NCBI GenBank assembly: GCA_964016885.1
Contig: OZ024757.1
Span: forward strand, 9,362,001-9,426,000
Reading direction: 5' to 3'
Length of the DNA: 64,000 nt
Origin: Eledone cirrhosa
Taxonomy: Eukaryota
Positions 15,431 through 63,600 of the stretch are shown here, one piece after another. Position numbers and translations under genes: made by a program. The notes under the pieces are model-generated. The model had not been told where the DNA came from. It saw only the letters and a program-made list of their open reading frames with translations, and made no database searches. The stretch's first letter is position 1, and every line of letters starts with the position of its first letter.

Positions 15431-15471
<41 letters not shown>

Positions 15472-16464: not shown

Positions 16465-16536
16465 AATTGGTTTTTATTTTGGCACAAGGCCAGCAATTAG
16501 CCAGTAGATTACTGGAACTTTATTTTATCGACCCCG
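16465..16536 (-). mobile_element. 3' fragment of the same SINE
   Basis: tttggcacaaggccagcaatt...actggaactttattttatcgacccc matches 15157-15215; it is cut by a deletion into unit sequence. Confidence 0.7.
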
Positions 16537-16926: not shown

Positions 16927-16992
16927 GTTCTTTGGAGACAGTATCTGTTAGTTTGTCTGGCTGAGAGACAAAGTTCTCTACAGGAGACATAA
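16927..16992 (-). CDS. Diverged exon B copy, MSPVENFVSQPDKLTDTVSKE
   Basis: 66 nt, ttttttttccag acceptor, gtaagt donor, open frame. Confidence 0.65.
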
Positions 16993-29939: not shown

Positions 29940-30990
29940 GGGGAAGGAGTCATGTCGATAGACTCTACTTAAGGAGATCTGAAGGTGGAAGAGGTCTTAT
30001 CAGCATAGAGGACTGTGTTCAGATGGAGAAAAACAACCTACACAAATACGTGACTGATAGTAAGGAGCCAATGCTCAGAACTGTACTGAAGGAGGGGACA
30101 ATAGGCCAGCGGATGTCCAAGGAGGAAATAACATCAAGGAGAAAGAGCAGCCTTCAGGAAAAATCCCTTCATAGTACCTTCTTTGAGAAAACTGAATTTA
30201 GAGATCCACAGATGTGGAACTGGTTGAAAAGAGGAGACCTTAAAAAGGCTACAGAAGGAATGCTAATGGCTGCGCAGGAGCAGGCCCTCAAAACGAAGTG
30301 GTTGAAACACCATATTTACAAGGGGAAGGCTAGCCCACTGTGCAGGATCTGTGGAGAGAGAGAGGAGACTGTGGCTCACATTGTCTCCGAGAGTAAACAC
30401 CTAGCCCAGACCCACTATAAGGGCTGGAGACACGATGTGATGGGCAGGGTGATCCACTGGCACCTGTGCAAAGTAAACAATTTACCACATTCTGAGAAAT
30501 GGTATGAGCGTAGGCCAGAGGCGGTGATGGAGAACAATCAGGTGAAGGTGCTGTGGGATTTTAGGATACAGACGGACAAAAAACTGGAACACAATAGACC
30601 TGACCTGGTGGTTGTGGACAAAGAAAAAAGATCGTGTCTGATTGTGGATGTGGCCTGCCCATTCGACACGAGAGTGCAAGAGAAGGAGAGGGAGAAAATT
30701 AACCGATACCAGGACCTAAAATGGGAGGTGAAAAGGATTTGGAACTGCCATGAAGTCAAAGTGATCCCGATTGTCATAGGCACACTGGGGACTATCTCCA
30801 AAAGTTTCCAGGGATGGTTAAAGAAAATCGGCCCCTTCACGCTTTTTGGAACGCTTCAAAAGGCATGCTTGCTTGGAACAGAAAGAACCCTCCGATACGT
30901 CCTGAATATCTGAGGCTGCAGGTAGTGGCTTGATATTCAATCCAACGGACTTTCCAGTTAACTAACATCAATGACTGAGACTCAAGGAAT
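29940..30990 (+). mobile_element. R4/Dong-clade non-LTR retrotransposon, family A, 3' fragment
   Basis: RLY..R.EGGRGL, CRIC..ETVAHIVS, RHD, and the restriction-like endonuclease motif RPDLVV...IVDVACPFD...EK..RY.DL. Stop at 30913, short 3'UTR, (AAT)n tail. Confidence 0.9.
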
Positions 30991-31023
30991 AACAACAACA
31001 ATAATAATAATAATAATAATAAT

Positions 31024-34000
31024 GATTTCTTTATTAACCACAAGGGTTTACATAAAGTAGACATTAAGGAGAGTGCAGGACAATACAGGACGGTACAAAT
31101 GGGCATTTCTGCGTGTAAAAAACAAAAACAGAGGATGTAACAAAAAATAAAAATGAAAAATTCCCCAATAGGGGGAAGACTTCGGAGGGACATTTGTGGA
31201 GAAAGCCCAGTAAAAGGCCACAATGACCCTGACAACCTAGGCAAGTGCCCTCTCCCAGTTTTCCACCTTTAATTTACAGATATATACTCAGAGTAGGCCC
31301 ATTCACTCGGGCCATTCTTGCTTCTCTCACCCATCTTTCAACAAAATGCTGGGAAGAGAGCACTTCCCTCTCTACTCTGATTTTCCTTTTCAAATGAAAT
31401 TTGAATAAGTCAATCAGAGCATCACCGAAGAGGTAAGTGCTCGTCTTCAGCCCTTTCAAACGTGTCCACCATACTATTTCTTTCGCCATGGCCACCAGAC
31501 AGATAAAAACTGCCTGCCCTTCCCGGCTAAAGGAGGAGGGCGGGGCAATCCTCACGATGGACTCAGATGATAGCCGGATCCGTCCTAAACGCGACAGCAG
31601 GTGTTCGATATAAACCAACAAGTCAGCAATTTTCGGACACTGGACGAGTGCGTGCAGGCGGTTTCGTCGCCCTGCGCGCATCTCGGACATGCCCGGCTGA
31701 CGGCACCTCCATGCCTGTAAAGTTTATCCCGAACTGGCAAGGCTCCTTGGTAGCACTGCCTGGCCAGAGATTTCTGGAAGTTGTCCATAGGCCCTGGCCC
31801 GAAAGTTCTTCCGAAAAGATTGGCTAGTTAATTTTCGTCGACGCCTAGAGTTTCCCCAAGTACGTCGTCGCTCTTCCCCTCCACTAATCCTCTATAGAAC
31901 GCCGAGGTGGAGTTTCCACCGATCACATTGCCCGATTGGTCGAGGGCTGTGAGCGCCTGAAGACATTCCAGTCTCCAGGCGCTCCCTCTCGGTCTTCGCT
32001 TGACCCAGAACTGCAGCTCCGTCAAGGAAACGAGCTGGGGAAATACGTGTCTAGCAAACGGCGACCACACCTGATCACCGTCGAGGAAGAAGTGGAAATG
32101 TAGCCTGAGCGCGTGCCTGCGCATCATCAGCCACGGCATGCCCGGCCCTCCACGTAGCGGGTGTTGACAACAAATGGACCGCCTGACCATCGGAGCGCGT
32201 CCCTTCCACAAAAAGCGAAAGAGCAAACGCTCCAGCGCAGTCAGGCGAGGCTTAGTACAAGGTACGACGGTCAGGCGGTAGCAGATGACAGACGCGATGT
32301 ACGCGTTAGCCACCTCTGCTCGACCTTTCAGGGATAGCTTCCTCTCCGCCCATTTCTGTGTGAGAGAAGCCACCCTGCTCGTCACCTCGTCCCAGTTTTT
32401 GTCCGTCTGGAGGTCCGGACCAGACCCCTAGCAATTTAACCGGTCCGTCCGTCCAGCGTCCGACGACGCTGTTGGACGGCATGGACCTGCCTCTCCAGGT
32501 GCCGAGCTGCAGGCCCACTGACTTTTCCTGGTTGATCATTGCTCCTGTCACCGCTTCGTATTCTCTTAGTGTAGTGCCGATCGCCTCGATGTGTTTGGCA
32601 TTCGACACCACTACGGTGACATCGTCCGCATATGCTGACACGGATCTTCCGCATCCTAGTTCGCGCGGACGCCCCTCAACGTCTCCAGTTTGTGCAGTAA
32701 TGGCTCGAGAGTCAATACGTACAAGAGGGACGAGAGGGGACATCCTTGGCGGACCGAGCGGATGATGTTGAACGGTTCCGACAGGTGACCGTTCACTCTC
32801 ACCACAGAGCAGATGTCGCTGTGCATGGCAGAGATCCAGCCTCTGAAGACGGGCCCAAAGCCAGCCGCCCTCAGGACTGTCGCTAGGTAACGATGGTCGA
32901 CCCTATCGAAAGGTTTCGACTGATCTAAATTGATCAAGGACCCACCCGTGCCAGGTTCCTTAGCTACACTCTCTACGGTGTATCGCATGAGGTGGAGGTT
33001 GTCGTGGATGGATCTGCCGGGAATGGCGCATGTCTGCGCCTCTCCCACCAGACCACCAATGACAAGCGCCAACCTCTTTGCTAGCACCTTGGCCAAAATC
33101 TTGAACTCTGTGTTTAGCAGAGTTATGGGCCGGAAATTATCTATGTTATCCCCCTTGTTCGGATCCTTTCTCAGCAGTGCCACCGCTCCTCGGCTCACAG
33201 AACTGGGAATTCTCCCGTTCTGTTGCCAGTTGCAGTAGACGTCCGCCAAGAGGCCTCCGAACAAGTCTGGCATCTGTACGTAAAGTTCATAGGGCAGACC
33301 ATCCAAACCAGGCGATTTACCCCTTGTGCAGCCAGTCATTGCCTCCCTTACTTCAGCGGCTGTTATAGGCTTTTCGCAACACTTCGCCTCAGTGGCCGAG
33401 AGCCGCGGCAGTCCGTCGCGGTAGACACTAAAGTCCATCCCTCGACCCGGCCCACCGCTGCCCCCGAACAGCTGAGCGAAGTGTTGCTGAAAAGCTTCAC
33501 ACATTTGCCCGGGATCGAGTACCATGCGCCCGTCGTGGTCCACCAAAGACCGGATCGTGGCTTTGTTGCCACGACGCGCCTCCGCCACTCGGGCCCATTG
33601 AACGGCTTTCGTCCCCTCGTGTCTGAGAGCACGCACCCTTGCTCTGACAACGCTGCCTTCGTGCTTTGCATTGAAGAATTGGTCAAGGGCCAATTTCGCC
33701 GCAAGCACGTCGGTCGCAATGCCTTTGCTAAGTGTCTTGTCTAATTTTCTAACTAGTTATCCCTCTGCTCTATTTTTCTCTATTGCTAAAGCCTTACTAA
33801 ACCTAATGGATTCTATTCTAATCGCTCTTTTCAGAGCAAACCACCACTTGTTGTTGACGATGGCCCCCGTCAACGCCCGCTTAACTAGTTCGCTAATCCG
33901 GTCTCTGTAGGCCTTGCGCGCTGGTAAGGACGCGTTTAGCTTCCAGTAGCCGGGTCCTCGTCTATGAAGCCTATCTAAGTCAAGCACACAGATCACGAAT

Positions 34001-36416
34001 TTGTGGTCCGTGTAGCTGACTATCTTGAATTGTGGACAGCCTATGCTAGACCTATCTATTTCCCTACAAAATACTCTATCTAGATATGATCTGGATGACC
34101 CTATGCGATTTGTCCAAGTCCACATTGGCACATTCGGGAAATCCAATTGCTACCTGTCAGACAGTTCAAAACGCCTGAGCAGGTTGGTGAGGCTCTTGCA
34201 AACTCCACCCCTATCCGCTAATCCCACAATTTCCAGGCGTGCATCTAAGATCCCGTTCCAGTCGCCCACTAACACTAAAGGTCTCCAGACGCCGGAAGAA
34301 ATCAGGCCGCCCTGCTCCTGTCGGGGCATAGACGGCCACTAGCCTGAAAGCTTGCCCGTCTCCGCTGGTCACGTCCAGCACCACCAGCTTACCCTCTGGG
34401 TCCAGGAAGATGGCCCGTATGGCGAGATCCAAACCTCTCCGAAAAAGCACAGCAACTCCTCCCCCCGATCCAGGACGGCTGGGAGATGCGTACACATCGT
34501 AGCCGCCGAAGATCGGTGCGAGGGCCCGTGCTTCGGAGATTCTGGTCTCGCTGATGGCCACTACATCTATGTTTAGTGATCTGAGGTCGTTGAGCAGGTG
34601 ACCCTGCTTCCATGACGACCCCAAGCCACGCGCATTTATGCTACCTATTCTGAGTGACGTCATGTTTAAAATAGAGTGGAAAAGATGGGAAAGACCACTT
34701 ACCGTACTTTTCGAAGAGGAGGGATGGTTTTTACATCTCATTTCACTTGATCGTCTTGTGAAGGGACCGTTGAATCATCCCTTCGGCTGGTCGTCGGCTC
34801 TTCTATGAGAATGTCTGAATATACTCTTCGATTGATAGTTCCTCCTAGGTCCCTGAAATCACCAACTGCGTTGGGGAATTTCGTTTTAATGTTTGTGTAT
34901 TGTTTCTGTGCTAGTTTTAGTAGTCTTATGTTAGTTGGCGTTTTGATTGGTGCTGGTATTATGTAGTCGTGTTGTGAAATGTCTGTGTGTTCAATTATGT
35001 AAGTCATTAGTTTCTTGTTGTGTGTATTTATTGCCGTGCATTTGTTTATCTTGGGGTGGGGTGTGGTTCTGCTATTTTCTTGTCGTTGTTGCTGGGTGTG
35101 TGTGTCTTGTTGTTGTGTTTGCGATGTTGGTGCTTGTGGTGGTGGTGTTGAAGGTGTTGTTGGTGGTAGGGTTGTCGCCGGTGGTGATGGTGGTGCTAGT
35201 GTGGGTGGTGATGGTGTTGGTGGTGTTGCTGCTGTGGGTCTCTTTGCAGTAGACTTTAACCTTTTTTCATTTCTTTCCTCCCTTTTCAAAGGCGACGATG
35301 CGCTGCTTCTGCGTTTGTGCCTTCTTACGACCTTTTGCCATCCCTCTTCCACCTCACACTCCATGTCTGATTCTGTGAGGTCGGGGAGGGGTACCAGCTC
35401 CAGTCTTTCACTTGTTGTTGTTGGTGATGTTTGCAGTGGAGTCTCTGTTGGAGCTGCTGTTGATATTATTGTTGTTGTTGTTAATACTTCCACTGCTGCT
35501 GTTCTTGATTTCCGTGGCGGGGTATGGGTGCCACGGCCCTATCGTTCCTGGTTGCCGCTTGTCCTGTTGCTGGTAGCAGTGGAGCCAGTTTCGGAAGGAG
35601 GGGGTTTTCTCCTTTCTCAGGGTCTTCTCGTTGCAGAAGGCCCTGAGCTGAGTCTTCGATCTACAGCGAAAGCATTTTGGGCGTTTGCCCTCAACACTTA
35701 TGGGCAGTTGAGTGCCGTTATCGAAGTCTATTACATCCGGGATAGCTTCCATGCACTCCTGGTTGGTTTGCATTAACATCTCAATGGAGGTGCCGACCCA
35801 ATCTTCTCTTACTCTTTTCTGTACTTGCAGTACAGTTGTTTTGTCCTCGATTCCGATGAGGACAGACGCGGCCAGCCAAGAAGGGGCCATCCGGGGGGGG
35901 GGGGGGGGTCAGTTTGACACTCACAATTTTTTTCCCGCAGTAGGAGGGCACCAACACCATTTCCTCGCTCCTTAGGGTCACTACGGATTGAGCCTTTGCC
36001 TCCTGGGGTGTGGCAAAAAGCACGTCTACGGTGGCATATGTCTTGCCTCGGGTGATATGCGTTTTACGCTGCCACAGAGACCCTAAGGCTTTTTTGTATT
36101 TGAGCCTCTGTGGCTCTTTCAACCCTACGGGATTTTGTGCTTACTGTACAGTACGTGACCGTACAGTGCTATTGGGTTTCGAAAAATGTTTCGGCTGCCT
36201 TGCAGATTGCTCGGTGTCCGGTTTTCGTCACCATCTTCTTCGCTTCATCTAATTCCTCATTTGCTATGAGGATGGTTTCCAGGTTCTTTGCGATACCTGC
36301 AAACGAGATTGGTTTTTCTTTGCTGCTGTTGTTGTTGTTGTTGTTGTTGTTGTCGTAAGAGCTGCTGTTACTTTTGTTGTTGCTGCAGGTAGTACGACTA
36401 CTGCCGCCGTCGTGGT

Positions 36417-36458
<42 letters not shown>

Positions 36459-37030
36459 TGCTGCTAATGCTGTTGTTGTTTATGATGCTGCTGATGCTGC
36501 TTCGGCTGCTACTGTTGTTTTCCTTGTCACTGTTACTGCTGCTGCTGTTATTACGGCTGCTACTGCTATTATTCATGACGTCAGACGAATGAAATGGCTT
36601 TTCGTATTTGCGGCACACCTTTTTCGTCGTTGTCGTCGTCGTGGAGAAATGTTCCATGCTTTGCACGTGATTTTGTAAACTATTTTTCTTTACTGGCGTC
36701 GCTTGCGAAAGAGAAGGGGGGGGGGAGAGAGACAATCTTCTCTCTGCTGTAGTGACGATTGAGGAAGAAGACGGAATGAGTGGGAGTGACTTGTGAAAAT
36801 TATTTTTCGTAGCCATGTTTTTTTTGACTTAAAATAAATATTGGGCACAAAACCCCAATAAGCGGTTATTTAACCCCGAAGCGCCAAATAACGGACAGAA
36901 AGACCCCTCTCACGAGGAGGAGGGTGTTTTTGTCTACAATTTGGTTAAAGTTTTAAACAATTTACAATTGTTATAGCGGTCAAAATTTACAATACCTTAC
37001 AGAGCCGAGCCTCGGTCAACCATGGCATTC
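31024..37030 (-). mobile_element. Tx1/L1-clade LINE, copy 1, full length (~6.0 kb), 5' type A, disrupted ORFs
   Basis: ORF1 from 36816 (low complexity, RPKCFRC knuckle). ORF2 from 34663 (IGSINARGL APE, KSPGLDGL, FRPITLLN, RQGCPLS, YADD). AATAAA then (ATT)n at the 3' end; (ATT)n also at the 5' end. Confidence 0.93.
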
Positions 37031-37079: not shown

Positions 37080-40000
37080 GTGCTTTCTTTATTAACCACA
37101 AGGGTTTACATAAAGTAGACATTAAGGACAGTACAGGACAATACAGGACGGTACAAATGGGCATTTCTGCGTGTAAAATAAAAAAGGGTGTAATAAAAAA
37201 AATAATGAAAAATTCCCCAATGGGGGGGAGACTTCCGAGGGACATTTGTGGAGAAAGCCCATTAAAAGGCCACAGTGACCCTGACCACCAAGGCAAGAGC
37301 CAGTTTTCCACCTTTAATTTACAGACACATACTCAAAGTAACAAAATGCTGGGAAGAGAGCACAAATGAAATTTGAAAAAGTCAATCAGGGCATCACCGA
37401 AGAGGTAAGTGCTCGTCTTCAGCCCTTTCAAACGTGTCCACCATACTATCTCTTTCGCCATGGCCACCAGACGGATAAAAACTGCCTACCCTTCCCGGCT
37501 AAAGGAAGAGGACGGGGCAATCCTCACGATGGACTCAGCTGATAGCCGGATCTGTCCTACTCGCGACAGCAAGTGTTCCACATAAACCCACAAGCCAGCA
37601 ATTCTCGGACACTGGACGAGTGCGTGCAGGACGGTTTCGTCGCCCTGCGCGCATCTCGGACATGCCCGGCTGACGGCACCTCCATGCCTGTAGAGTTTAT
37701 ATAGAACTGGCAAGGCGCCTCGGTAGCACTGCCAGGCCAGAGGTTTCTGGAAGTTATCCATAGGCCCCGGCCCGAAAGTTCTTCCGAAGAGATTGGCTAG
37801 TTAATTTTCGTCGACGTCTAGAGTTTCCCCAAGTACGTCGTCGCTTTTTCCCTGCACTAATCCTCTATAGAACGCCGATGTGGAGTTTCCACCGATCACA
37901 TTGCCCAATTGGTCGAGGGCTGTGAGCGCCTGAAGACATTCCAGTCTCCAAGCGCTCCTTCTCGGTCTTCGCTTGACCCAGAACTGCAGCTCCGTCAAGG
38001 AAACGAGCTGGGGAAAGACGTGACTAGCAAACGGTGACCACACCTGATCACCGTCAAAGAAGAAGTGGAGATGTTCTGGCCTGAGCGCGCGTCTGCGCAT
38101 CATCAGCCACGGCATACCCAGCCCTCCACGTAGCGGGTGTTGACAGCAGATCGACCGCCTGACCATCGGAGCGCGTCCCTTCCACAAAAAGCGAAAGAGC
38201 AAACGCTCCAGCGCAGTCAGGCGGGGCTTAGGACAAGGTACGATGGTCAGGCGGGAGCAGATGACAGACGCGATGTACGCGTTAGCCACCTCTGCTCGAC
38301 CTTTCAGGGATAGCTTCCTCTCCGTCCATTTCTGGGTGAGAGAAGCCACCCTGCACGTCACCTGGTCCCAGTTTTTGTCTGTCTGGAGGTCCGGACCAAA
38401 CCAGACCCCTAGCAATTTAACCGGTCCGTCCGTCCAGCGTCCGACGACGCTATTTGACGGCATGGACTTGCTCTCCAGGTGGCGAGCTGCAGGCCCACTG
38501 ACTTTTCCTGGTTGATCATTGCTCCTGTCACCGCTTCGTATTCTCTTAGTGTAGTGCCGATCGCCTCGATGTGTTTGGCGTTCGATACCACTACGGTGAT
38601 ATCGTCCGCATATGCTGACACGGATCTTCCGCATCCTAGTTCGCGCGGGACTCCCCTTAACGTCTCCAATTTGTGCAGTAATGGCTCGAGAGTCAATACG
38701 TACAAGTGGTACGAGAGGAGACATCCTTGGCGGACCGAGCGCATGATGTTGAACGGTTCCGAAAGGTAACCGTTCACTCTCACCACAGAGCAGATGTCGC
38801 TGTGCATGGCAGCGATCCAGCCTCTGAAACGGGCCCAAAGCCAGCCGCCTTCAGGACTGCCGCCAGGTAACGATGGTCGACCCTATCGAAAGCTTTCGAC
38901 TGATCTAAATTGATCAACCCACCCGTGCCAGGTTCCCTAGCTACCCTCTCTACGATGTATCGCATGAGGTGGAGGTTGTCGTGGATGGATCTGTCGGGAA
39001 TGGCGCATGTCTGCACCTCTCCCACCAGACCACCAACGACAAGCGCTAACCTCTTTGCTAGCACCTTGGCCAAATTCTTGAACTCTGGGTTTAGCAGAGT
39101 TATGGGCCTGAAATTATCTATGTTATCCTCCATGTTCGGATCCTTTCTCACATCGTCACCGCTCCTCGGCTCACAGATCTGGGAATTCTCCCGTTCTGTT
39201 GCCAGTTGCAGTAGATGTCCGCCAAGAAGCCTCCGTACAAGTCTGGCATCTGTACGTAAACTTCATAGGGCAGACCCACAAAACCAGGCGATTTACCCCT
39301 TGTGCAGCCAGTCATTGCCTCCCGTACTTCAGCGGCTGTTATCGGCTTTTCGCAACACTCCGCCTCAGTGGCCGAAAGCCGCGGCAGTCCGTCGAGGTAG
39401 ACACTAAAGTCCATCCCTCGATCCGGCCCGCCGCTGCCCCCGAACAGTTGAGCGAAGTGTTGCTGAAAAGCTTCACACATTTGCCCGGGATCGAGTAGCA
39501 TGCGCCCGTCGTGGTCCAACAAAGACCGGATCGTGGCTTTGTTGCCACGACGCGCCTCCGCCACTCGGGCCCATTGAACGGCTTTCGTCCCCTCGTATCT
39601 GAGAGCACGCACCCTAGCTCTGAGAACGCAGCCTTCGTACTTTGCATTGAAGAATTGGTCAAGGGCCAATTTCGCCTCAAGTACGTCGGTCGCGATGCCT
39701 TTGCTAAGCGCCTCGTCTAATTTTCTAACTAGTTCTCCCACTGCTCTATTTTTCTCTATAGCTAAAGCCTTAATAAACCTAATGGACTCTATTCTAATCG
39801 CTCTTTTCAGAGCAAACCACCACTTGTTTTGACGATGGCCCCCGTCAACACCCGCTTAACGAGTTTGCCCAATCCGGTCTCTGTATGCCTTGCGGGCTGG
39901 TAAGGACGCGTTTAGCTTCCAGTAGCCGGGTCCTCGTCTATGAAGCCTATCTAAGTCAAGCACAAAGATCACGATTTTGGGGTCCGTGTAGCTGACTATC

Positions 40001-42863
40001 TTGATATTTTGAATTGTGGACAGCCTATGCTAGACCTATCTATTTCCCTACAAATTACTATATCTAGATATGATCTGGATGACCCGATGTGTTTTGGCCA
40101 AGTCCACAATGGCACATTCGGGAAATCTAATCGGTACCTGTCAGACAGTTCAAAACGCCTGAGCAGATATGCGAGTCTCTGGCACCCACCTCCCCTATAA
40201 GCTAATCCCACACACTCCCAGCGTGATCCCGTTCCAGTCGCCCACTAACACTAAAGAGCGGGACGTTCCAAGAATGGTCTCCAGACGCCGGGAGAAATCA
40301 AGCCGCCCTGCTGCTGTCAGCCACTAGCCTGAAAGCTTGCCCGTCTCCGCTGGTCACGTTCAGCACCACTAACTTACCTTCTGGGTCCAGGAAGATGGCC
40401 CGTATGGTGAGATCCAAACCTCTCCGAAAAAGCACAGCAACTCCTCCCCCACGATCCAGGACGGTTGAGAGATGCGAACACATCGTAGCCGCCGAAGATC
40501 GGTGCGAAGGCCCGTGCTTCGTAGATTCTGGCCTCGCTGATGGCCACTACATCTATGTTTAGTGACCTGAGGTCGTTGAGCAGGTGGCCCTGCTTCCATG
40601 ACGACCCCAAGTCACGCGCATTTATGCTGCCTATTCTGAGTGAGGTCATGTTGAAATGGAGTTGAAAAGATGGGAAAGACCACTTACCTTACTTCTCGTA
40701 GAGAAAGGATGGTTTCTCCATCCTTTTCACTGCTTGTGGCCTCCTCAGGAAGGATGTCCTTATAAATCCTCCTGGAGAGTGCTTGTCGGAAGTCTCCGAT
40801 GTCTTTGGGAAATTTTTGTTTTAGTGTCGTGTACGTTTTCTGTGTGATGCGAGTGATTTTTATGTGTGCAGGTTGTGTGAACTTTTGGGTGTTATGTATT
40901 CTTTTTCTGTGGTTCTGGTGTTGTGTTGGATGTAGTGTAGTAATTGGTTGTTGTTCAAATGCAATTCTGTGTAGTGTGTATAGTTTTGGTTGTTTTGTTT
41001 TGATTGCGTTTGTGGTGGGTTTGTTTCTGTTTCGCTTTTTGGTGACTTTTGTGGTGTTGGTGATGGTGGTGTTGGAGTTAATGATGGTGATGGTGTTGGT
41101 GTTTGTGGTGATGGGGTTGGTCATGCTGGTGTGGATGGTGGCATAGCTGTCCTAACTTTTTTTGTTTGATAGTTTATTTGTTTCTCTCTGTATTTTGTTT
41201 TTGGAGGGGGAAGGAAGAGGATTTTTTTCTTTTTAGGCTTCTTTTTCTTTTTTTCTTTTTTTCTTTTTTTTGCTTCTTTTCCTTTTTTTCTTTTTTCCTG
41301 ATACCGTTTTCCACTCCTCGTCGTCACAATCTGTCTCCAGTTGCGATAGGTCTGGGAGTGAAAAATCCTCCACAGGCGTTAGTTTTGGTTGTGGCGTGGT
41401 GGATGGTGTAGGCGCTGGTGATAGTTCTGGCGCGTTGGGTGGTGGTAGTGTTCGTTTTGCTACTTTTGCTGGGGTTGCTGCTGCTACAGTTGCTTCTGTT
41501 GTTGCTGCTACAGTTAGTTGCTGCCATTTCTGCTGCTGATGGTGTTGATGGTTGAGCCACTGGGGTGGGTAAGAGAGGTGGCCTCAACTTTTTAACCTGA
41601 GGGCAGAAAGCCCTTAGGTGGGTTCCTTCACCACAAACGACACACCTAGGCCTTATACCCTCGACGATTACGGTGAGGTAGCTGCCGTCAGTGAGGTCTA
41701 TTACCTCTGGGATTTCCTGAATGCTTTTTGGGTCCGCTTGGATCAGGAGCTCCATCCCAGATCCGGACCAGTTCTCCTGCTTTTCATTTTGCTATTTCGA
41801 TTATTTTAGTTTTGGCCTCGATGTCGGCGAGGACGTCAGCCATTACCCAGGAAATTTCGATGGCTGGTGGAACGTGGATCACCCTGATCTTTACAAGTCT
41901 CTGGCCACAATAGTTTGGGACGAGTGTGAAGTCGTCGCTTCTTAATGGGGCCATGGAGTACTCTCTGGCCTCCTGTGGTGTTCCAAAGAACACGTCCACG
42001 ATTCCATATTTCTGCCCACGTCTGATGTGGGTTTTGTTGCCCACAGATGTCCCAAAGCTTTTTGGATCTGGGACTCTGATGCCCGTTCCACTCGGCGCGA
42101 TTTTATGTTAATCGTCCGATAAGACACGATGCATAGGCGCCGATGCTCCATTTCTATTAGGTGGGGGGCTGACCCTGTACCCATCTTTCTTTACCATTCT
42201 CTTGGTTTCATCTAATTCTTCCTGAGTTACCTCGATTGTTTCGCATTTTTTGGCTGCTTTGGCAGACGACACGGTGGTGTTGATGTGTTTGTTGTTGTTC
42301 TCATTGTTGTTGTTGCTGTTGTTGTTATTGTTATTTTTATTATTGTTATTTTTAGTTTCAGTTGTGGAGGTGGTGGTGGCGTCAGTGGTGTTCGGTGTGG
42401 AAGAGTCGATTCTAGCTGAATCCATTTCGATGTCACGAGATAATTTTTTTTTGTTTCTGTTATCGCTGTGGTGGTGGTGGGGGTGGCGGCTTCAACACCT
42501 GCAGTCAGTGGGAATGGCGGGAAATGAATGTATGCATGAGACAAATTTAATTTATTGCTACTGCTTATATTTTTAGTGTTGGCAAACGTAGTAATATTTA
42601 CAATGGTGGTGTCGGTGTGAGGTGTTAGTTTGTGAGGAAGGCTGTCAGCCAGGTGTAGCTGTGAGTCGTCCATGTTTTTTTCAAACTAATTTTTTGTTTG
42701 ATAATTATAAAAGTTTAAATTTTGGGCTCAAGGCCCCAATCTTTTTGAGTGCCCTTTTCCGAAAGCAAATTATGTGACGTTATAAACACCTAACAACAAA
42801 AATTTTCCATAAATGGCAATTTGAAACAACTGAAAACAACAAACCTTTGCGGAGCTCACGATG

Positions 42864-42865
<2 letters not shown>
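37080..42865 (-). mobile_element. Tx1/L1-clade LINE, copy 2, near full length, 5' type B, disrupted ORFs
   Basis: ORF2 fragments are near-identical to copy 1, but the 5'UTR and ORF1 differ (from 42673; RPRCVVCGEGTHLRAFC CCHC knuckle). (AAT)n on both sides. Confidence 0.93.
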
Positions 42866-51715: not shown

Positions 51716-54700
51716 GATTTCTTTATTAACCACAAGGTTTTACATAAAGTAGACATTAAGGACAGTGCAGGACAATACAGGACGGTACAAATGGGCATTT
51801 CTGCGTGTAAAAAACAAAAACAGAGGTTGTAACAAAAAATAACAATGAAAAATTCCCCAATAGGGGGGAGACTTCGGAGGGACATTTGTGGAGAAATCCC
51901 AATAAAAAGCCACAGTGACCCTGACCACCAAGGCAAGTGCCCTCTCCCAGTTTTCCACCTTTAATTTACAGATATATACTCAGAGTAGGCCCATTCACTC
52001 GGGCCATTCTTGCTTCTCTCACCCATCTTTCAACAAAATGCTGGGAAGAGAGCACTTCCCTCTCTACTCTGATTTTCCTTTTCAAATGAAATTTGAAAAA
52101 GTCAATCAGAGCATCACCGAAGAGGTAAGTGCTCGTCTTCAGCCCTTTCAAACGTGTCCACCATACTATCTCTTTCGCCATGGCCACCAGACAGATAAAA
52201 ACTGTCTGCCCTTCCCGGCTAAAATAGGAGAGCGGGGCAATCCTTACGATGGACTCAGATGATAGCCGGATCCGTCCTAAACGCGACAGCAGGTGTTCGA
52301 CATAAACCCACAAGTCAGCAATTTTCGGACATTGGACGAGTGCATGCAGGACGGTTTCGTCGCCCTACGCACATCTTGGACATGCCCGGCTGACGGCACC
52401 TCCATGCCTGTAGAGTTTATCCCAAACTGGCAAGGCTCCTCGGTAGCACTGCCTGGCCAGAGATTTCTGGAAGTTGTCCATAGGCCCTGGCCCGAAAGTT
52501 CTTCCGAAGAGATTGGCTAGTTAATTTTCGTCGACGCCTAGAGGTTCCACAAGTACGCCGTCGCTCTTCCCCTCCACTAATCCTCTATAGAACGCCGAGG
52601 TGGAGTTTTCACCGATCAGATTGCCCGATTGGTCGAGGGGTGTGAGCGCCTGAAGAGATTCCAGTCTCCAGGCGCTCCCTCTCGGTATTCGCTTGACCCA
52701 GGATTGCAGCTCCGTCAAGGAAACGAACTGGGGAAAAACGTGTCTAGCAAACGGTGACCACACCTGATCACCGTCGAGGAAGAGGTGGAGATGTCGTAGC
52801 CTGAGCGCGTGCCTGCGCATCATCAGCCACGGCATGCCCAGCCCTCCACGTAGCGGGTGTTGACAACAGATGGACCGCCTGAGCATCGGAGCGCGTCCCT
52901 TCCACAAAAAGCGAAAGAGCAAACGCTCCAGCGCAGTCAGGCGAGGCTTAGGACAAGGTACGACGGTCAGGCGGTAGCAGATGACAGACGCGATGTACGC
53001 GTTAGCCACCTCCGCTCGATCTTTAAGGGATACCTTCCTCTCCGCCCATTTCTGTGTGAGAGAAGCCACCCTGCTCGTCACCTCGTCCCAGTTTTTGTCC
53101 GTCTGGAGGTCCGGACCGAACCAGACCCGTATCAATTGAACCGGTCCGTCCGTCCAGCGTCCGACGACGCTGTTGGACGGCATGGACCTGCCTCTCCAGG
53201 TGCCGAGCTGCAGGCCCACTGACTTTTCCTGGTTGATCATTGCTCCTGCCACCGCTTCGTATTCTCTTAGTGTAGTGCCGATCGCCTCGATGTGTTTGGC
53301 GTTCGACACCACTACGGTGACATCGTTCGCATATGCTGACACGGATCTTCCGCATCCTAGTTCGCGCGGGATGCCCCTCAACGTCTCCAGTTTGTGCAGT
53401 AATGACTCGAGAGTCACTACGTACAAGAGGGACGAGAGGGGACATCCTTGGCGGACCGAGCGCATGATGTTGAACGGTTCCGACAGGTGACCGTTCACTC
53501 TCACCACAGAGCAGATGTCGCTGTGCATGGCAGTGATCCAGCCTCTGAAGACGGGCCCAAAGCCAGCCGCCATCAGGACTGCCGCTAGGTAACGATGGTC
53601 GACCCTATCGAAAGCTTTCGAGTGATCTAAATTGATCAAGGACACAACCGTGCCAGGTTCCCTAGCTACTACATCTATGTTTAGTAACCTGAGGTCGTTG
53701 AGCAGGTGAACCTGCTTCCATGACGACCCCAGGCCACGCGCATTTATGCTGCCTATTCTGAGTGAGGTCATGTTTAAAATAGAGTGGAAAAGATGAGAAA
53801 GACCTCTTACCGTACTTTTCGTAGAGGAGGGATGGATTTTACATCCCTTTTCACTTGATCGTCTGATGAAGGGACCGTTGAATCGTCCCTTCTACTGGTC
53901 ATCGGCTCTTCTATGAGTATGTCCGAATATACTCTTCGGTTGATAGTACCTCCTAGGTCTCTGAAATCACCAACTGCGTTGGGGAATTTCGTTTTAATGT
54001 TTGTGTATTGTTTCTGTGCTATTTTTAGCAGTCTTATGTTAGTTGGCGTTTTGAGTTTTGAGCTGCTGTTACTTTTGTTGCTGCTGCAGGTACTACGACT
54101 ACTGCCGCCGCCGCTGTTGCTGTGGTTGTTGTTGTTGTTGCTGCTGCTAATGCTGTTGTTGTTTATGCTGCTGCTGATGCTGTTGCGGCTGCTGCTGTTG
54201 TTTTCATTGTCACTGTTGCTGTTGTTATTACGGCTGCTACTGCTATTATTCCTGACGTCAGACGAATGAAATGGGTTTTCGTATTTCCCGCACACCTGTT
54301 TCGTCGTCGTTGTTGTCGTGGAGAAATCTTGCACGCTTTGCACGAGACTTTTCTTTTCTGTCGCCGCTTGCGAAAGAGAAGGGAGGGAGAGAGACACATT
54401 TAAAGAAGGGAGGGAGAGAGACAATCTTCTCTCTGCTGTAGTGACGATTGAGCAAGAAGAAGTCGGAATGAGTGGGAGTGACCTATGAAATTTCTTTTTC
54501 GTAGCCATGTTGTTTTTTTTTGTTTAAATTAAATATTGGGCACAAAACCCTAATAAGCAGTTATTTAACCCCGAAGGGCCAAATAACAGGCAGAAAGACC
54601 CGTCTCACGAGGAGGAGGGTGTTTTTGTCTACAAGTTGGTAAAAGTTTTAACAATTTACAATTGTTATAGCGTTCAAAATTTGCAATACCTTACAGAGCC

Positions 54701-54724
54701 GAGCCTCCGTCAACTATAGCATTC
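51716..54724 (-). mobile_element. Tx1/L1-clade LINE, copy 3, 5' type A, two large internal deletions
   Basis: Both ends match copy 1. ORF2 jumps from NIDVV to AREPGT near 53667, and ORF1 jumps from NSSS to KTPTNIRLL near 54055. Confidence 0.92.
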
Positions 54725-54746
54725 AATAATAATAATAATAATAATG

Positions 54747-56040: not shown

Positions 56041-59000
56041 GTAGGTGGTAGTAGATGACGGACGCGATGTACGCGTTAGCCACCACCGCTCGACCTTTCA
56101 GGCATAGCTTCCTCTCGGCCCATTTCTGGGTGAGAGAAGCCACCCTGCTCGTCACCTCGTCCCAGTTTTTGTCCGTCTGGAGGTCTGGACCGAACCAGAC
56201 CCCTAGCAATTTAACCGGTCCGTCTGTCCAGCGCCCGACGACGCTGTTGGACGGCATGGACCTGCCTCTCCAGGTGCCGAGCTGCAGGCCCACTGACTTT
56301 TCCTGGTTGATCATTGCTCCTGTCACCGCTTCGTATTCTCTTAGTGTAGTGCCGATCGCCTCGATGTGTTTGGCGTTCGACACCCCTACGGTGACATCGT
56401 CGGCATATGCTGACACGGATCTTCCGCATCCTAGTTCGCGCGGGATCCCCCTCAACGTCTCCAGTTTGTGCAGTAATGGCTCGAGAGTCAATACGTACAA
56501 GAGGGACGAGAGGGGACATCCTTGGCGGACCGAGCGCATGATGTTGAACGGTTCCGAAAGGTGACCGTTCACTCTCACTACAAAGCAGATGTTGTTGTGC
56601 ATGGCAGCGATCCAGCCTCTGAAACGGGCCCAAAACCAGCCGCCCTCAAGACTGCCTCTAGGTAACGATGGTCGACCCTATCGAAGGCTTTCGACTGATC
56701 TAAATTGATCAAAGACCCACCCGTGCCAGGTTCCCTAGCTACCCTCTCTACGATGTATCGCATGAGGTGGAGGTTGTCGTGGATGGATCTGTCGGGAATG
56801 ACGCATGTCTGTGCCTCTCCCACCAGACCACCAACGACAAGCGCCAACCTCTTTGCTAGCACCTTGGCCAAAATCTTGAACTCTGTGTTTAGCAGAGTTA
56901 TGGGCCTAAAATTATCTATGTTATCCCCCTTGTTCGGATCCTTTCTCAGCAGCGCCACCGCTCCTCAGCTCACAGAGCTGGGAATTCTCCCGTTCTGTTG
57001 CCAGTTGCAGTAGACGTCTGCCAAGAGGCCTCCGAACAAGTTTGGCATTTGTACGTAAAGTTCATAGGGCAGACCATCCAAACCAGGCGATTTACCCCTT
57101 GTGCAACTAGTCATTGCATCCCGTACTTCAGTGGTTGTTATCGCCTCAGTGGACGAAAGCCGCGGCAGTCCGTCGAGGTAGACACTAAAGTCCATCCCTC
57201 GATCCGGCCCGCCACTGCCCCCGAACAGCTGAGCGAAGTGTCGCTGAAAAGCTTCACACATATTCCCGGGATCGAGTAGCATGCGCCCGTCGTGGTCCAC
57301 CAAAGACCGGATCGTGGCTTTGTTGCCACGACGTGCCTCCGCCACTCAGTCCCATTGAACGGCTTTCGTCCCCTCGTGTCTGAGAGCACGCACCCTAGCT
57401 CTGACAACGCAGCCTTCGTGCTTTGCATTGAAGAATTGGTCAAGGGCCAATTTCGCCGCAAGTACGTCGGTCGCGATGCCTTTGCTAAGCGCCTCATCTA
57501 ATTTTCTAACTAATTCTCCCTCTGCTCTATTTTTCTCTATTGCTAAAGTCTTACTAAACCTAATGGACTCTATTCTAATTGCTCTTTTCAGAGCAAACCA
57601 CCACTTGATGTTGACGATGGCCCCCGTCAACGCCCGCTTAACTAGTTCGCTAATCCGGTCTCTGTAGGCCTTGCGCGATGGTAAGGACGCGTTTAGCTTC
57701 CAGTAGCCGGGTCCTCGCCTATGAAGCCTATCTAAGTCAAGCACACAGATCACGAATTCGTGGTTGTGTAGCTGACTATTTTGAATTGTGGACAGCCTAT
57801 GCTAGACCTATCTATTTCCCTACAAAATACTCTATCTAGATATGATCTGGATGATCCTATGCGATTTGTGCAAGTCCACATTGGTACATTCGGGAAATCC
57901 ATTCGGTACCTGTCAGACAGTTCAAAACGTCTGAGCAGGTTGGTGAGACACTTGCACCCTCCTTCCCTATCCACTAATCCCACACAATCCCAGCGTGCAT
58001 CTAAGATCCCGTTCCAGTCGCCCACTAACACTAAAGAGCGGGACGTTCCAAGAAAGGTCTCCAGACGCCGGAAGAAATCACGCCGCCCTGCTCCTGTCGG
58101 GGCATAGACGGCCACTAACCTGAAAGCTTGGCCGTCTCCGCTGGTCACGTCCAGCACCACCAACTTACCTTCTGTGTCCAGGAAGATGGCCCGTATGGCA
58201 AGATCCAAACATCTCCGAAAAAGCACAGCAACTCCTCCCCCCGATCCCGGACGGCTGGAGATGCGTACACATCGTAGCCGCCGAAGATCGGTGCGAAAGC
58301 CTGTGCTTCGGAGATTCTGGTCTCGCTGATGGCCACTACATCTATGTTTAGTGACCAGAGGTCGTTGAGCAGGTGGCCCTGCTTCCATGACGACCCCAAG
58401 CCACGCGCATTTATGCTGCCTATTCTGAGTGAGGTCATGTTGAAAAGGAGTGGAAAAGATGGGAAAGACCACTTACCTTACTTCTCGTAGGGGAAGGACG
58501 GTTTTTCCACCCTTTTCACTGCTTGTGGCCTCCTCAGGAAGGATGTCCTTATAAATCCTCCTGGCGAGTGCTTGTCGGAAGTCTCCGATGTCTTTGGGGA
58601 ATTTTTGTTTTAGTGTCATGTACGTTTTCTGTGTGATGCGAGTGATTTGTATGTGTGGAGGTGGTGTGAATTTTGGGGTTGTTGTGTAGTCTTTTTCTGT
58701 GATGCTGGTGTTGTTTTAGATGTAGTGTAATAATTGCTTGTTGTTCAAATTTAATGCTGTGTAGTGTGTATCGTTTTGGTTGTTCTGTTTTGTTTGCGTT
58801 TGTTGTGCGTTTGTTTCTGTTTCGCATTTTGATGACTTTTGTGGTGTAGGTGATGGTGGTGTTGGGGTTAATGATGGTGATGGTGTTGGTGTTTGGGTTG
58901 ATGGGGTTGGTGATGCTGGTGTGGATGGTGGCATATCTGTCCTAACTTTTTTGTTTCTTAATTTATTTGTTTCCCTCTGTATTTTGTTTTTGGAGGGGGA

Positions 59001-60659
59001 AGGAAGAGAATTTTTTCTTTTTTGGTTTCTTTTTTTTTTCCGGATACGTTTCCCACTCCTCGTCGTCACAATCTGTCTCCAGTTGTGATAGGCCGGGGAG
59101 TGGAAAATCCTCCACAGCCGTTAGTTTTGGTTGTGGCGTGGTGGATGGTGTAGGCGCTGGTGCTAGTTCTGAAGCGTTGGGTGGTGGTGGTGTTGGTTTT
59201 GCTGGTGGTGGTGGTGGTGTTGGTTTTGCTACTGTTGCTGGGGTTGTTGCTGTTATAGTTGCTTCTGTTGTTGCTGCTACAGTTGTTGCTGCCATCTCTG
59301 CTACTGGTGGTGTTGATGGTTGTGTCACGGGGGTGGGTAGGAGAGGTGGCCTCAACCTTTTAGCCTGAGGGCAGAAAGCCCTTAGGTGGGTTCCTTCACC
59401 ACAAACGACACACCTAGGTCTTCTGCCCTCGCCAATTACCGTGAGGTGGCTGCCGTCAGTGAGGTCTGTTACCTCTGGGATCTCCTCAATGCTTTTTTGG
59501 TCCGCTTGGATCAGGAGCTCCATCCCAGATCCGCACCAGTTCTCCTGCTTTTCTTTTGCTATTGCTATTATCTTTGTGTTGGCTTCTATTAGCCAGGGAA
59601 TTTCGATGGCCGGTGGAACGTGGGTCACCCTGATCTTTACGAGTCTCTGGCCACAATAGCTTGGGACGAGTGTGAAGTCGTCACTTCTTAATGGGGCCAT
59701 GGAGTGTTCTCTAGCCTCCTCTGGTGTTTCAAAGAACACGTCCACTGTTCCATACTTTTGCCCACGTCTGATGTGGGTTTTTCTTGCCCACACATGTCCC
59801 AAAGCTTTTTGGATTTGGGACTCGGATGCCCGTTCAACTCGGCGCGAATTTACATTTATTGTTCTATACGACACGGTGCATAGGCGCCGATGCTCCATTT
59901 TATTAGGTGGGGGGTGAGGTTGACCCTGTACCCATCTTTCTTTACCATTTGTTAGGCATTTTCTAAATCCTCCTGAGTTACCGTAAATGCTTCGAATTGT
60001 TTTGCTACTCTGGCGAAACTGAGGGGGGGGGGTTATAATGTCATTGTTGTTGGTGTTGCTATCGTTAATATTAATTTTAGTTTCAGTTGTGGTGGTGGTA
60101 ACGTCAGTCGTCTTTGGTGGGGAAGAGTCCATTTTGCTTGATTTCATTTCGACATCACGAGTTAATTTATTTTTTTCTTCTTTTGTTTCTGTTGTCGCGG
60201 TGGTGGTGGTAGTGGTGGTTGTCGCGGTGGTGGTGGTGGTGGTGGTGGTGATGGTGGAGGCTTTAACACCTGCAGTCATTGGTAATGGCGGGAAATGTAT
60301 GTCTGCCTGAGACAAATTTAAAATATTGCTAGTGCTTATATTTTTTTTTTGTGTTGGCAAACGTAGTAACATTTACAATGGTGGTGTCGGTGTGAGGTGT
60401 TAATTTGTGAGGAAGGCTTTCAGCTGCTTCGTGCAGAGGTGAATTAGCCATTTTTTTCAAAGAAATTTTTTGATAATAATAAAAGTTTAAATTTTGGGCA
60501 CAAGGCCCCAATCTTTTTGGGTGTCCTTTTCGGAAAACAATGTATGTGCGCTTATAAACAGTTAACAATAAAAAATTTCCATAAATGACAATTTTTAACA
60601 AACGGAAATAACAAACCTTTGCGGAGCTCACGATGATACGATTTACAACGTAGGTCGCC

Positions 60660-60660
<1 letters not shown>
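56041..60660 (-). mobile_element. Tx1/L1-clade LINE, copy 4, 5' type B, 3' end missing
   Basis: 469-aa ORF1 segment with a CCHC knuckle; ORF2 fragments run through YADD and break at YIASVIYY; the 5' end abuts (AAT)n. Confidence 0.92.
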
Positions 60661-60692
<32 letters not shown>

Positions 60693-60694
<2 letters not shown>

Positions 60695-63600
60695 TTTCTT
60701 TATTAACCACAAGGGTTTACATAAAGTAGACATTAAGGACAGTGCAGGACAATGCAGGACGGTACAAATGGGCATTTCTGCGTGTAAAAAAACAAAAACA
60801 GAGGATGTAACAAAAATAACAATGAAAATAACAATGAAAAATTCCCCAATAGGGGGGAGACTTCGGAGGGACATTTGTGGAGAAAGCCCAGTAAAAAGCC
60901 ACAATGACCCTGACCACCAAGGCAAGTGCCCTCTCCCAGTTTTCCACCTTTAGTTTACAGATATATACTCAGAGTCGGCCCATTCACTCGGGCCATTCTT
61001 GCTTCTCTCACCCATCTTTCAACAAAATGCTGGGAAGAGAGCACTTCCCTCTCTACTCTGATTTTCCTTTTCAAATGAAATTTGAAAAAGTCAATCAGAG
61101 CATCACCGAAGAGGTAAGTGCTCGTCTTCAGCCCTTTCAAACGTGTCCACCATACTATCTCTTTCGCCATGGCCACCAGACAGATAAAAACTGCCTGCCC
61201 TTCCCGGCTAAAGGAGGAGGGCGGGGCAATCCTCACGATGGACTCAGATGATAGCTGGATCCGTCCTAAACGCGACAGCAGGTGTTCGACATAAACCCAC
61301 AAGTCAGCAATTTTCGGACACTGGACGAGTGCGTGCAGGACGGTTTCGTCGCCCTGCGCGCATCTCGGACATGCCCGGCTGACGGCACCTCCATGCCTGT
61401 AGAGTTTATCCCGAACTGGCAAGGCTCCTCGGTAGCACTGCCAGGCCAGAGATTTCTGGAAGTTGTCCATAGGCCCTGGCCCGAAAGTTCTTCCGAAGAG
61501 ATTGGCTAGTTGATTTTCGTCGACGCCTAGAGTTTCCCCAAGTACGTCGTCGCTCTTCCCCTCCACTAATCCTCTATAGAACGCCGAGGTGGAGTTTCCA
61601 CCGATCACATTGCCCGATTGGTCGAGGGCTGTGAGCGCCTGAAGACATTCCAGTCTCCAGGCGCTCCCTCTCGGTCTTCGCTTGACCCAGGACTGCAGCT
61701 CCGTCAAGGAAACGAGCTGGGGAAAAACGCGTCTAGCAAACGGCGACCACACCTGATCACCGTCGAGGAAGAGGTGGAGATGTCGTAGCCTGAGCGCGTG
61801 CCTGCGCATCATCAGCCACGGCATGCCCAGCCCTCCACGTAGCGGGTGTTGACAACAGATGGACCGCCTGACCATCGGAGCACGTCCCTTCCACAAAAAG
61901 CGAAAGAGCAAACGCTCCAGCGCAGTCAGGCGAGGCTTAGGACAAGGTACGACGGTTAGGCGGTAGCAGATGACAGACGCGATGTACGCGTTAGCCACCT
62001 CCGCTCGACCTTTCAGGGATAGCTTCCTCTCCGCCCATTTCTGGGTGAGAGAAGCCACCCTGCTCGTCACCTCGTCCCAGTTTTTGTCCGTCTGGAGGTC
62101 CGGACCGAACCAGACCCCTAGCAATTTAACCGGTCCGTCCGTCCAGCGCCCGACGACGCTGTTGGACGGCATGGACCTGCCTCTCCAGGTGCCGAGCTGC
62201 AGGCCCACTGACTTTTCCTGGTTGATCATTGCTCCTGTCACCGCTTCGTATTCTCTTAGTGTAGTGCCGATCGCCTCGATGTGTTTGGCGTTCGACACCA
62301 CTACGGTGACATCGTCCGCATATGCTGACACGGATCTTCCGCATCCTAGTTCGCGCGGGACTCCCCTCAACGTCTCCAGTTTGTGCAGTAATGGCTCGAG
62401 AGTCAATACGTACAAGAGGGACGAGAGGGGACATCCTTGGCGGACCGAGCGCATGATGTTGAACGGTTCCGACAGGTGACCGTTCACTCTCACCACAGAG
62501 CAGATGTCGCTGTGCATGGCAGCGATCCAGCCTCTGAAGACGGGCCCAAAGCCAGCCGCCCTCAGGACTGCCGCTAGGTAACGATGGTCGACCCTATCGA
62601 AAGCTTTCGACTGATCTAAATTGATCAAGGACCCACCCGTGCCAGGTTCCCTAGCTACCCTCTCTACGATGTATCGCATGAGGTGGAGGTTGTCGTGGAT
62701 GGATCTGTCGGGAATGGCGCATGTCTGCGCCTCTCCCACCAGACCACCAACGACAAGCGCCAACCTCTTTGCTAGCACCTTGGCCAAAATCTTAAACTCT
62801 GTGTTTAGCAGAGTTATGGGCCGGAAATTGTCTATGTTATCCCCCTTGTTCGGATCCTTTCTCAGCAGTGCCACCGCTCCTCGGCTCACAGAACTGGGAA
62901 TTCTCCCGTTCTGTTGCCAGTTGCAGTAGACGTCCGCCAAGAGGCCTCCGAACAAGTCTGGCATCTGTACGTAAAGTTCATAGGGCAGACCATCCAAACC
63001 AGGCGATTTACCCCTTGTGCAGCCAGTCATTGCCTCCCGTACTTCAGCGGCTGTTATCGGCTTTTCGCAACACCTCGCCTCAGTGGCCGAGAGCCGCGGC
63101 AGCCCGTCGAGGTAGACACTAAAGTCCATCCCTCTACCCGGCCCCCCGCTGCCCCCGAACAGCTGAGCGAAGTGTCGCTGAAAAGTTTCACACATTTGCC
63201 CGGGATCGAGTAGCATGCGCCCGTCGTGGTCCACCAAAGACCGGATCGTGGCTTTGTTGCCACGACGCGCCTCCGCCACTCGGGCCCATTGAACGGCTTT
63301 CGTCCCCTCGTGTCTGAGAGCACGCACCCTAGCTCTGACAACGCAGCCTTCGTGCTTTGCATTGAAGAATTGGTCAAGGGCCAATTTCGCCGCAAGCACG
63401 TCGGTCGCAATGCCTTTGCTAAGCGCCTCGTCTAATTTTCTAACTAGTTCTCCCTCTGCTCTATTTTTCTCTATTGCTAAAGCCTTACTAAACCTAATCG
63501 ATTCTATTCTAATCGCTCTTTTCAGAGCAAACCACCACTTGTTGTTGACGATGGCCCCCGTCAACGCCCGCTTAACTAGTTCGCTAATCCGGTCTCTGTA

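What the first reader, a model, noticed from the sequence alone, without database searches (positions are those of the whole stretch)
34650..34702. The Tx1 ORF1-ORF2 spacer looks like a mini-intron that fuses the two ORFs in frame
Seen in all four copies with this junction (34650-34702, 40636-40687, 53758-53810, 58425-58476): the ORF1 stop lies inside a donor (type A CG|GTAAGT or CG|GTAAGA; type B AG|GTAAGT). A pyrimidine-rich tract follows, then CTCAG|A inside ORF2 codon 5. Splicing would remove the stop and the ORF2 ATG and give ...KV-R-IGSINARG or ...EV-R-IGSINARG in frame. The spacer is 53 nt in type A and 52 nt in type B, so the unspliced frame offset differs while the splice phase is kept. 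Inference: ORF2 expression by splicing, which is unusual for L1-clade elements. Caveats: the intron is very short, the pyrimidine tract ends ~17 nt before the AG, and in-frame fusion has a 1-in-3 chance.
Basis: partly seen in the sequence, partly recalled or inferred. Interest (0 to 1): 0.7.

Follow-up and report, generated by a model that had tools for sequence, protein, structure and literature searches.

The report
LINE splice donor, not a mini-intron
These jumping genes (LINE retrotransposons, likely of an octopus) carry a near-perfect splice-start signal on the stop codon of their first gene, but the tiny intron proposed is likely just the ordinary gap between the two genes; the signal is predicted to be clamped by the RNA at the far end of the second gene and likely serves to cut that whole gene out, though no spliced RNA has been seen.

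Summary
The four junctions are as described (minus strand, GT..AG, 53/52/53/52 nt, in-frame if spliced). The donor is real: it is the best-scoring donor in three elements scored, with chance about 1e-3 to 1e-4. The mini-intron is not supported. Its in-frame AG is expected from coding alone (76%), it ranks poorly as an acceptor, sister families carry AAG, AAG, TAG or GAG there and keep their ORF2 ATG, pyrimidine-rich spacers are common in relatives without donors, and none of 1058 laid contigs shows the 53-nt skip. Instead, 43 of the 53 nt pair in the predicted fold with the ORF2 end and 3'UTR start 3.4 kb away. The strongest acceptor lies in the 3'UTR; a join there would give ORF1 plus 20 residues, a stop and the element's polyA signal. 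Type A ORF1 is a chimera joined where a donor exon would end, directly after a CAG of type B: a likely fossil splice. Best reading: a U1-bound donor used for long-range splicing, masked by a helix; untested in RNA. The scan reported this donor and helix before on other pieces of the same genome; I re-tested them here.

The parts
31020..37030 (-). Copy 1, Tx1-like LINE, ORF1 type A, near full length, decayed; (ATT)n at both ends
37080..42864 (-). Copy 2, ORF1 type B, full length, decayed, with deletions in the 3' helix arm
51716..54725 (-). Copy 3, type A, internal deletions in ORF1 and ORF2 (none with GT..AG ends)
56043..60660 (-). Copy 4, type B, 3'-truncated; ORF1 with CX2CX4HX4C knuckle
60690..64000 (-). 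Copy 5, 953-aa intact RT and zf-RVT part of ORF2 plus 3'UTR; runs off the window
34650..34702 (-). Copy 1 junction: donor GT at 34702-34701, ORF1 TAA 34701-34699, spacer, ORF2 ATG 34663-34661, AG at 34651-34650; 43 of 53 nt predicted paired with 31240-31298
40636..40687 (-). Copy 2 junction (AAG|GTAAGT, 52 nt)
53758..53810 (-). Copy 3 junction (ACG|GTAAGA, 53 nt); predicted paired with 51932-51990
58425..58476 (-). Copy 4 junction (AAG|GTAAGT, 52 nt)
31240..31298 (-). 3' arm of the long-range helix: last ORF2 codons, ORF2 TAA (31276-31274) and start of the 3'UTR
51932..51990 (-). 3' arm of the helix in copy 3
34871..34882 (-). Upper helix arm in ORF1 (KFP codons, kept in types A and B), predicted paired with 31157-31168 in the 3'UTR
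31030..31133 (-). 3'UTR pyrimidine tract and CAG (last intron base 31109; also 37167, 51801, 60778), the top-ranked acceptor of each element with a 3' end, followed by a 19-codon frame, TAA and AATAAA (31035-31030)
34703..34746 (-). Chimeric end of type A ORF1: join at 34746|34745 (also 53854|53853); the last 43 nt are 81-83% like the last 42 nt of type B, which follow GCAG at 40733-40730
34387..34395 (-). Second donor motif in the EGKL codons of the endonuclease (also GT at 40377 and 58168, AAG|GTAAGT)

Best explanation
The 52-53 nt are the ordinary ORF1-ORF2 spacer of a Tx1-like LINE whose ORF1 stop carries a real splice-donor motif, and this donor likely splices not to the AG 53 nt away but to distant acceptors, most likely the strong one in the 3'UTR, while a predicted long-range helix likely masks it in full-length RNA. 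Steps: (1, shown) donor motif on the stop; (2, shown as complementarity, predicted as structure) donor, spacer and ORF2 start pair with the ORF2 end and 3'UTR, looping out ORF2; (3, inferred) U1 binds the donor on the nascent RNA; when the 3' end is made, either the helix displaces U1 and the RNA stays full length for ORF2 translation from its own ATG and for retrotransposition, or the donor is joined to the 3'UTR CAG, giving an ORF1-only mRNA (ORF1 + Arg + 19 aa, stop, own polyA signal); (4, inferred) in head-to-tail arrays the donor occasionally joins an AG in the next element, which would have made the type A chimera.
For: Donor top-ranked and improbable by chance. Helix: best duplex of the junction over the whole element lies at the ORF2 stop in copies 1 and 3 (-58.7 and -53.3 kcal/mol; 0 of 30 shuffled queries reach it in either); DNA-level scores 46, 40, 53, 54 against shuffle means of 21-22 and maxima of 34-38 in 300; it forms in the global MFE of copies 3 and 1; it extends about 170 nt up into type B ORF1. 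3'UTR acceptor ranks first in 4 of 4 copies with a 3' end, against 3 of 26 distant intact relatives. Type A: identity to type B is 56-63% up to ...CAAG, which aligns with the donor exon end of type B, and 81-83% over the next 43 nt, which in type B start after CAG. Of 25 listed contig pieces, 10 stop matching at 34702-34703, at least 4 running on for 28-1139 nt, so further ORF1 types share the sequence from the donor on (the list is a selection). An ATG stands within 25 codons before the endonuclease motif in 51 of 56 distant loci. Precedents: Copia shGAG splicing (PMC5580714, section 8) and a DHBV structure that hides splice sites (PMC3356268, passage).
Against: No spliced RNA and no ORF2-less copy was seen; the long join was not tested (no lay covered both ends). 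Unbiased mismatch counts show no excess of G-U over A-C (4:3, 4:3, 7:5, 10:9), so an old inverted duplication without RNA function is not excluded. Copy 2 has lost the core helix. The four 3' ends are one family, so the acceptor rank is one observation with about 12% background. The parent family of the type A chimera, with GT at the join, is not in the window; a template switch at a shared AG gives the same join, and the join is now one base off the type B phase. Only 2 of 25 distant relatives have a strong donor on the stop and their tree sisters do not; the helix ranks first in 3 of 19. The helix cannot form until 3.4 kb later, so it cannot block early splicing. Splice scores use recalled human-type frequencies, not host-trained ones.
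Confidence: 0.5

Rival explanations
1. One reading: a 52-53-nt spliceosomal intron removes the ORF1 stop and ORF2 ATG and yields an ORF1-ORF2 fusion protein, regularly or as the main route to ORF2.
For: Perfect donor; no AG between intron nt 6 and the end; in-frame join in 4 of 4 copies; adenosines at intron nt 36-38 fit the fly minima of about 35 and 15 nt (PMC5762160); introns of 37-65 nt exist even in human (PMC4463651 abstract); AG kept in 4 of 4 sister variants; a second donor 257 nt downstream could define an exon behind this AG. Predicted gene models of fish and frog relatives join ORF1-type domains to ORF2, but they are predictions whose DNA I could not see.
Against: Frame expected in 76% of recodings; weak acceptor; YAG in only 1 of 4 sister variants; ORF2 ATG kept; no joint in 1058 contigs of four runs over 34590-34790, although the same method showed deletions at depth 8-24 nearby (contigs can drop rare forms); a spliced RNA that encodes the RT should leave intron-less copies (inference from cis preference, recalled); distant L048 has the same donor but its first AG is 112 nt away and out of frame; no ORF1 homologue of 822-2345 aa found among 152 candidates (weak).
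Confidence: 0.1
2. The donor is a U1-binding site that is rarely spliced: it protects the nascent RNA from early 3'-end formation, and the helix couples translation by hiding the ORF2 AUG until the ORF1 ribosome melts it, also bringing the 3' end next to the ORF2 start.
For: The helix covers the ORF1 stop, ORF2 AUG and ORF2 stop together; a second consensus donor sits 310 nt downstream (about 1% by recoding of the first 140 codons); U1 blocks premature termination in Copia EVD (PMC5580714 section 8); ORF2 translation depends on ORF1 translation in SART1 and L1 (PMC2881922 passage). The MS2 long-distance helix over the replicase start is a recalled analogy.
Against: No AATAAA between the donor and the true signal in any of the five copies, only an ATTAAA at the ORF2 stop in three, so little to suppress; does not explain the top-ranked 3'UTR acceptor.
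Confidence: 0.27
3. Neutral history: the 3'UTR arose by an inverted duplication of the junction and the donor is an inherited accident.
For: No G-U strand bias; antisense duplex energies close to sense over the long arms; most distant relatives lack both features.
Against: Donor kept in two ORF1 types only 56-63% alike and in further types; silent positions of the KFP arm kept in both types; chimeric join at the donor position.
Confidence: 0.13

Closest known systems
Tx1-clade non-LTR retrotransposons that target microsatellites (Kibi (TC)n, Koshi (TTC)n, crocodilian (TTCC)n/(TTTC)n; PMC4494074, abstract and passages); L1-Tx1 families active in Octopus vulgaris (PMC13282606, passages)
   Same: Two ORFs, APE endonuclease, RT and zf-RVT, CCHC knuckle in ORF1, insertion in a simple repeat, here (ATT)n.
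   Different: Different repeat; the passages seen mention no splice donor, intron or long-range helix.
Ty1/Copia shGAG splicing, Arabidopsis EVD (PMC5580714, abstract and section 8)
   Same: Conserved strong donor in a retroelement; splicing gives an RNA for the structural protein only; U1 also guards the full-length RNA.
   Different: LTR element with a short intron at the protease and a separate internal polyA site; shown by experiment. Here a LINE, a 3.6-kb candidate intron, no RNA evidence.
[quoted passage not shown]
   Same: Complementary sequences far apart protect the RT-coding template from splicing.
   Different: There both splice sites of one intron are involved; here the helix covers the donor and ends before the best acceptor.
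L1 and SART1 ORF2 translation by coupling or reinitiation (PMC2881922, passage)
   Same: Bicistronic RNA with a short spacer and an ORF2 ATG.
   Different: No donor or clamp described in the passage.
HAL1 half-L1 elements (PMC5753468, passage)
   Same: ORF1-only derivative, the product that a retrotransposed long splice would leave.
   Different: None found here; origin by splicing is not stated in the passage.

Membership tests
L1/Tx1 group LINE | ORF2 with N-terminal APE endonuclease, RT and C-terminal zinc-binding domain | tested here: met
   PF03372, PF00078, PF13966
L1/Tx1 group LINE | ORF1 with RRM-like region and CCHC knuckle | tested here: met
   CX2CX4HX4C in type B; atlas look-alikes zf-CCHC 0.93 and ZCCHC3-type RBD 0.89 (leads); Pfam gave no ORF1 family
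Tx1 clade | RT phylogeny with named Tx1 elements | tested here: inconclusive
   Tree of 89 rows joins the element only with P0042 (100/100); no named Tx1 reference was in the tree
Tx1 clade | Target-sequence preference | tested here: met
   (ATT)n at all 8 intact ends seen in the window; tail and target cannot be told apart here
Spliceosomal (U2) intron, 52-53 nt | Consensus 5' splice site | tested here: met
Spliceosomal (U2) intron, 52-53 nt | Branch point, pyrimidine tract and YAG at the 3' end | tested here: inconclusive
   CAG present, geometry possible, but weak score, no clear branch motif, YAG in 1 of 4 sister variants
Spliceosomal (U2) intron, 52-53 nt | Spliced RNA or intron-less retrocopies | tested here: inconclusive
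   No joint in 1058 contigs; no run on record as RNA; contigs show presence, not absence
Spliceosomal (U2) intron, 52-53 nt | Length within the host intron range | not testable with these tools
   No host genome held; no cephalopod minimum found
Copia-type subgenomic splicing | Conserved donor at the end of the structural gene | tested here: met
Copia-type subgenomic splicing | Detected spliced structural-protein mRNA | not tested
   No lay covered donor and 3'UTR together; no RNA run on record

The most novel reading that the evidence does not exclude
A LINE lineage runs a splicing switch: a U1-bound donor on the ORF1 stop competes with a 3.4-kb-range RNA clamp to choose between an ORF1-only mRNA and the full-length template, and in head-to-tail arrays the same donor splices into the next element and founds new families with swapped ORF1.
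Probability: 0.35. Interest if true: 0.78.

Novelty: new variant of a known kind. Interest (0 to 1): 0.52.

Why it matters
How LINEs balance much ORF1 protein against little ORF2 protein is explained by reinitiation in the few elements studied. A LINE that uses the host spliceosome and a long-range RNA helix for this would parallel Copia and hepadnaviruses, and would give a mechanism for ORF1 replacement between LINE families. It makes sharp predictions (one junction sequence, one helix) that existing cephalopod RNA data can test. The proposed fusion intron itself is probably a by-product of codon choice.

Tried and rejected
No host genome held. No RNA holder listed. Run X8 (88 Mb) may be RNA, because a single-copy-type deletion has depth 13.4 there and 10.8 in X1, but its kind is not on record, so its unspliced contigs are not counted as RNA evidence. 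One search showed 15 of 25 joints, none a 53-nt skip; X16 (1 contig), X20 (0) and X6 (1) were uninformative. Local hairpin around the donor: z -0.4 to -1.5, rejected. Helix over the second donor: different partners, within shuffles in 4 of 6 pairings, rejected. Deletions in copy 3 have no GT..AG ends. Acceptor on the ORF2 stop, as proposed for other families in earlier notes: this family has TG there and no AG near it scored above 6. No Rfam or tRNA hit in the window. No relatives in viral contigs. Of 80 metagenome loci, 24 gave no endonuclease motif by pattern; 6 of these were placed by tblastn and none had a donor above 5.8 bits. The ORF2 end assigned to L048 is probably about 200 nt too far, so its rank is unreliable. 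Literature searches for a fusing intron, donor or clamp in LINEs listed nothing of the kind by title and abstract start; subscription papers, Repbase and supplements were not seen.

Full report
Observation. The window holds five copies of one LINE family on the minus strand, each set in (ATT)n. ORF2 has endonuclease, RT and zf-RVT domains; ORF1 comes in two types. A homologue from Argonauta hians at 53% identity makes an octopod host likely; the host was not determined.

The donor is real. On a matrix of recalled human frequencies it is the top site in copy 1 and tied top in copies 2 and 4, with a chance of 1.4e-3 to 1e-4 on a stop codon. It is kept in two ORF1 types that are 56-63% alike upstream of their last 42-43 nt. 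Among 25 listed contig pieces, 10 stop matching at 34702-34703 and at least 4 of them run on, so more ORF1 types share the sequence from the donor onward (the list is a selection from 1058).

The mini-intron is not supported. A donor that overlaps the stop has phase 2 by construction, and any in-frame AGN codon is a phase-2 AG; with this element's codon usage the first AG of the ORF2 start is in frame in 76% of 20000 recodings. The AG ranks 58 of 264, 24 of 248, 27 of 126 and 11 of 182 as an acceptor. Loose-end consensus of four sister variants keeps the AGA codon but reads AAG, AAG, TAG and GAG, and shows an own ATG in three (agreement 0.56-1.0; their donors were not seen). Spacers of distant relatives are also pyrimidine-rich: 10 of 13 at 0.6 or more, median 0.69, against 0.71-0.79 here. 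An ATG precedes the endonuclease motif in 51 of 56 loci. Laying four runs on 34590-34790 (15, 654, 388 and 1 contigs) gave no joint at all, while the wider lay showed deletions at depth 8-24 (15 of 25 joints listed, none this one). Contigs drop rare forms and no run is on record as RNA, so this speaks against a family of intron-less copies, not against rare splicing. [quoted passage not shown]

What the spacer does match. Earlier notes of this scan pointed to a long-range helix, which I tested. The best duplex of the junction over the element lies at the ORF2 stop in copies 1 and 3, beyond all 30 shuffles each; copy 2, with deletions there, fails. Alignment scores without G-U credit are 46, 40, 53 and 54 against maxima of 34-38 in 300 shuffles, and 33 for copy 2, within its shuffles. 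The helix appears in the global MFE of copy 3 and copy 1, where 43 of the 53 nt, the donor, the AUG and the AG are paired. Complementarity continues about 170 nt into type B ORF1, and the KFP arm is kept in both types. The strand test is neutral (G-U to A-C 4:3, 4:3, 7:5, 10:9), so RNA function is predicted, not shown.

Where the donor could go. The top-ranked acceptor in all four 3' ends is a pyrimidine tract and CAG in the 3'UTR; a phase-2 join would add Arg and 19 residues, then TAA, 12 nt before AATAAA. In 26 distant intact relatives the top acceptor was in the 3'UTR in 3. This is the geometry of a donor spliced to an AG in the next element of a head-to-tail array. The parent family is not in the window, and a template switch at the shared AG cannot be excluded.

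Breadth. Of 80 distant loci (24-37% identity), 25 distinct ones had an ORF1 stop near ORF2; 2 carry a strong donor on the stop (L048, L027), neither with an in-frame short intron to a YAG, and their tree sisters lack it. The junction's best partner was at the ORF2 end in 3 of 19, about three times chance but weak. The system looks lineage-restricted.

Comparison. It works most like Copia shGAG splicing (PMC5580714, abstract and section 8) combined with the DHBV splice-suppressing structure (PMC3356268, passage); it is a member of the L1/Tx1 group by domains and target type, with clade placement inconclusive. Five searches listed no report of such a donor, intron or clamp in a LINE; most papers were seen as listings only, and supplements were not seen.

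Verdict. Observation confirmed; fusion intron unlikely (0.10); donor used for long-range splicing under a predicted clamp 0.50; U1 or translation role without regular splicing 0.27; neutral 0.13. New variant of a known kind, interest 0.52.

Noticed in passing
L048:5010-5150 and L050:4751-4891: A distant Tx1-like element ends directly before a U1 snRNA gene (Rfam RF00003, 104 bits) and itself has AAG|GTAAGT on its ORF1 stop; possibly a U1-gene-targeting family. L027 has two U5 genes upstream of its ORF1.
   Followed up: partly
window 34387-34395, 40372-40380, 58163-58171 (minus): Second consensus donor in the EGKL codons of the endonuclease; the majority letters in run X1 give AAG|GTAAGT; none of 38 distant loci scores above 5.6 at this motif.
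   Followed up: partly
window 34703-34790 and 53811-53900 (minus): Type A ORF1 end is a chimera with a 14-codon duplication, joined at a donor-like end and after a CAG of type B.
   Followed up: yes
window 1-17500: Tandem array of about 1.45-kb units, 94-99% alike among the first units, each with an (AT)n run.
   Followed up: no
window 31020-31275 (minus): One frame of the 3'UTR is open for about 85 codons in copies 1-3; broken in copy 5.
   Followed up: no
window 31492-31512 with 32393-32413; 37453-37484 with 38369-38400; 52184-52204 with 53089-53109: An inverted repeat about 880 nt apart inside ORF2, seen in three copies.
   Followed up: no
window 29945-30990, 45019-46652, 48443-51620, 55022-56040 (plus): Another RT-bearing LINE family on the plus strand whose ends adjoin the Tx1-like copies at the same AAT repeats.
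   Followed up: no
P0001, P0002: Predicted gene models of two characiform fish join ORF1-type domains to a Tx1-like ORF2, with different residues at the join; likely gene-finder products, DNA not seen.
   Followed up: partly
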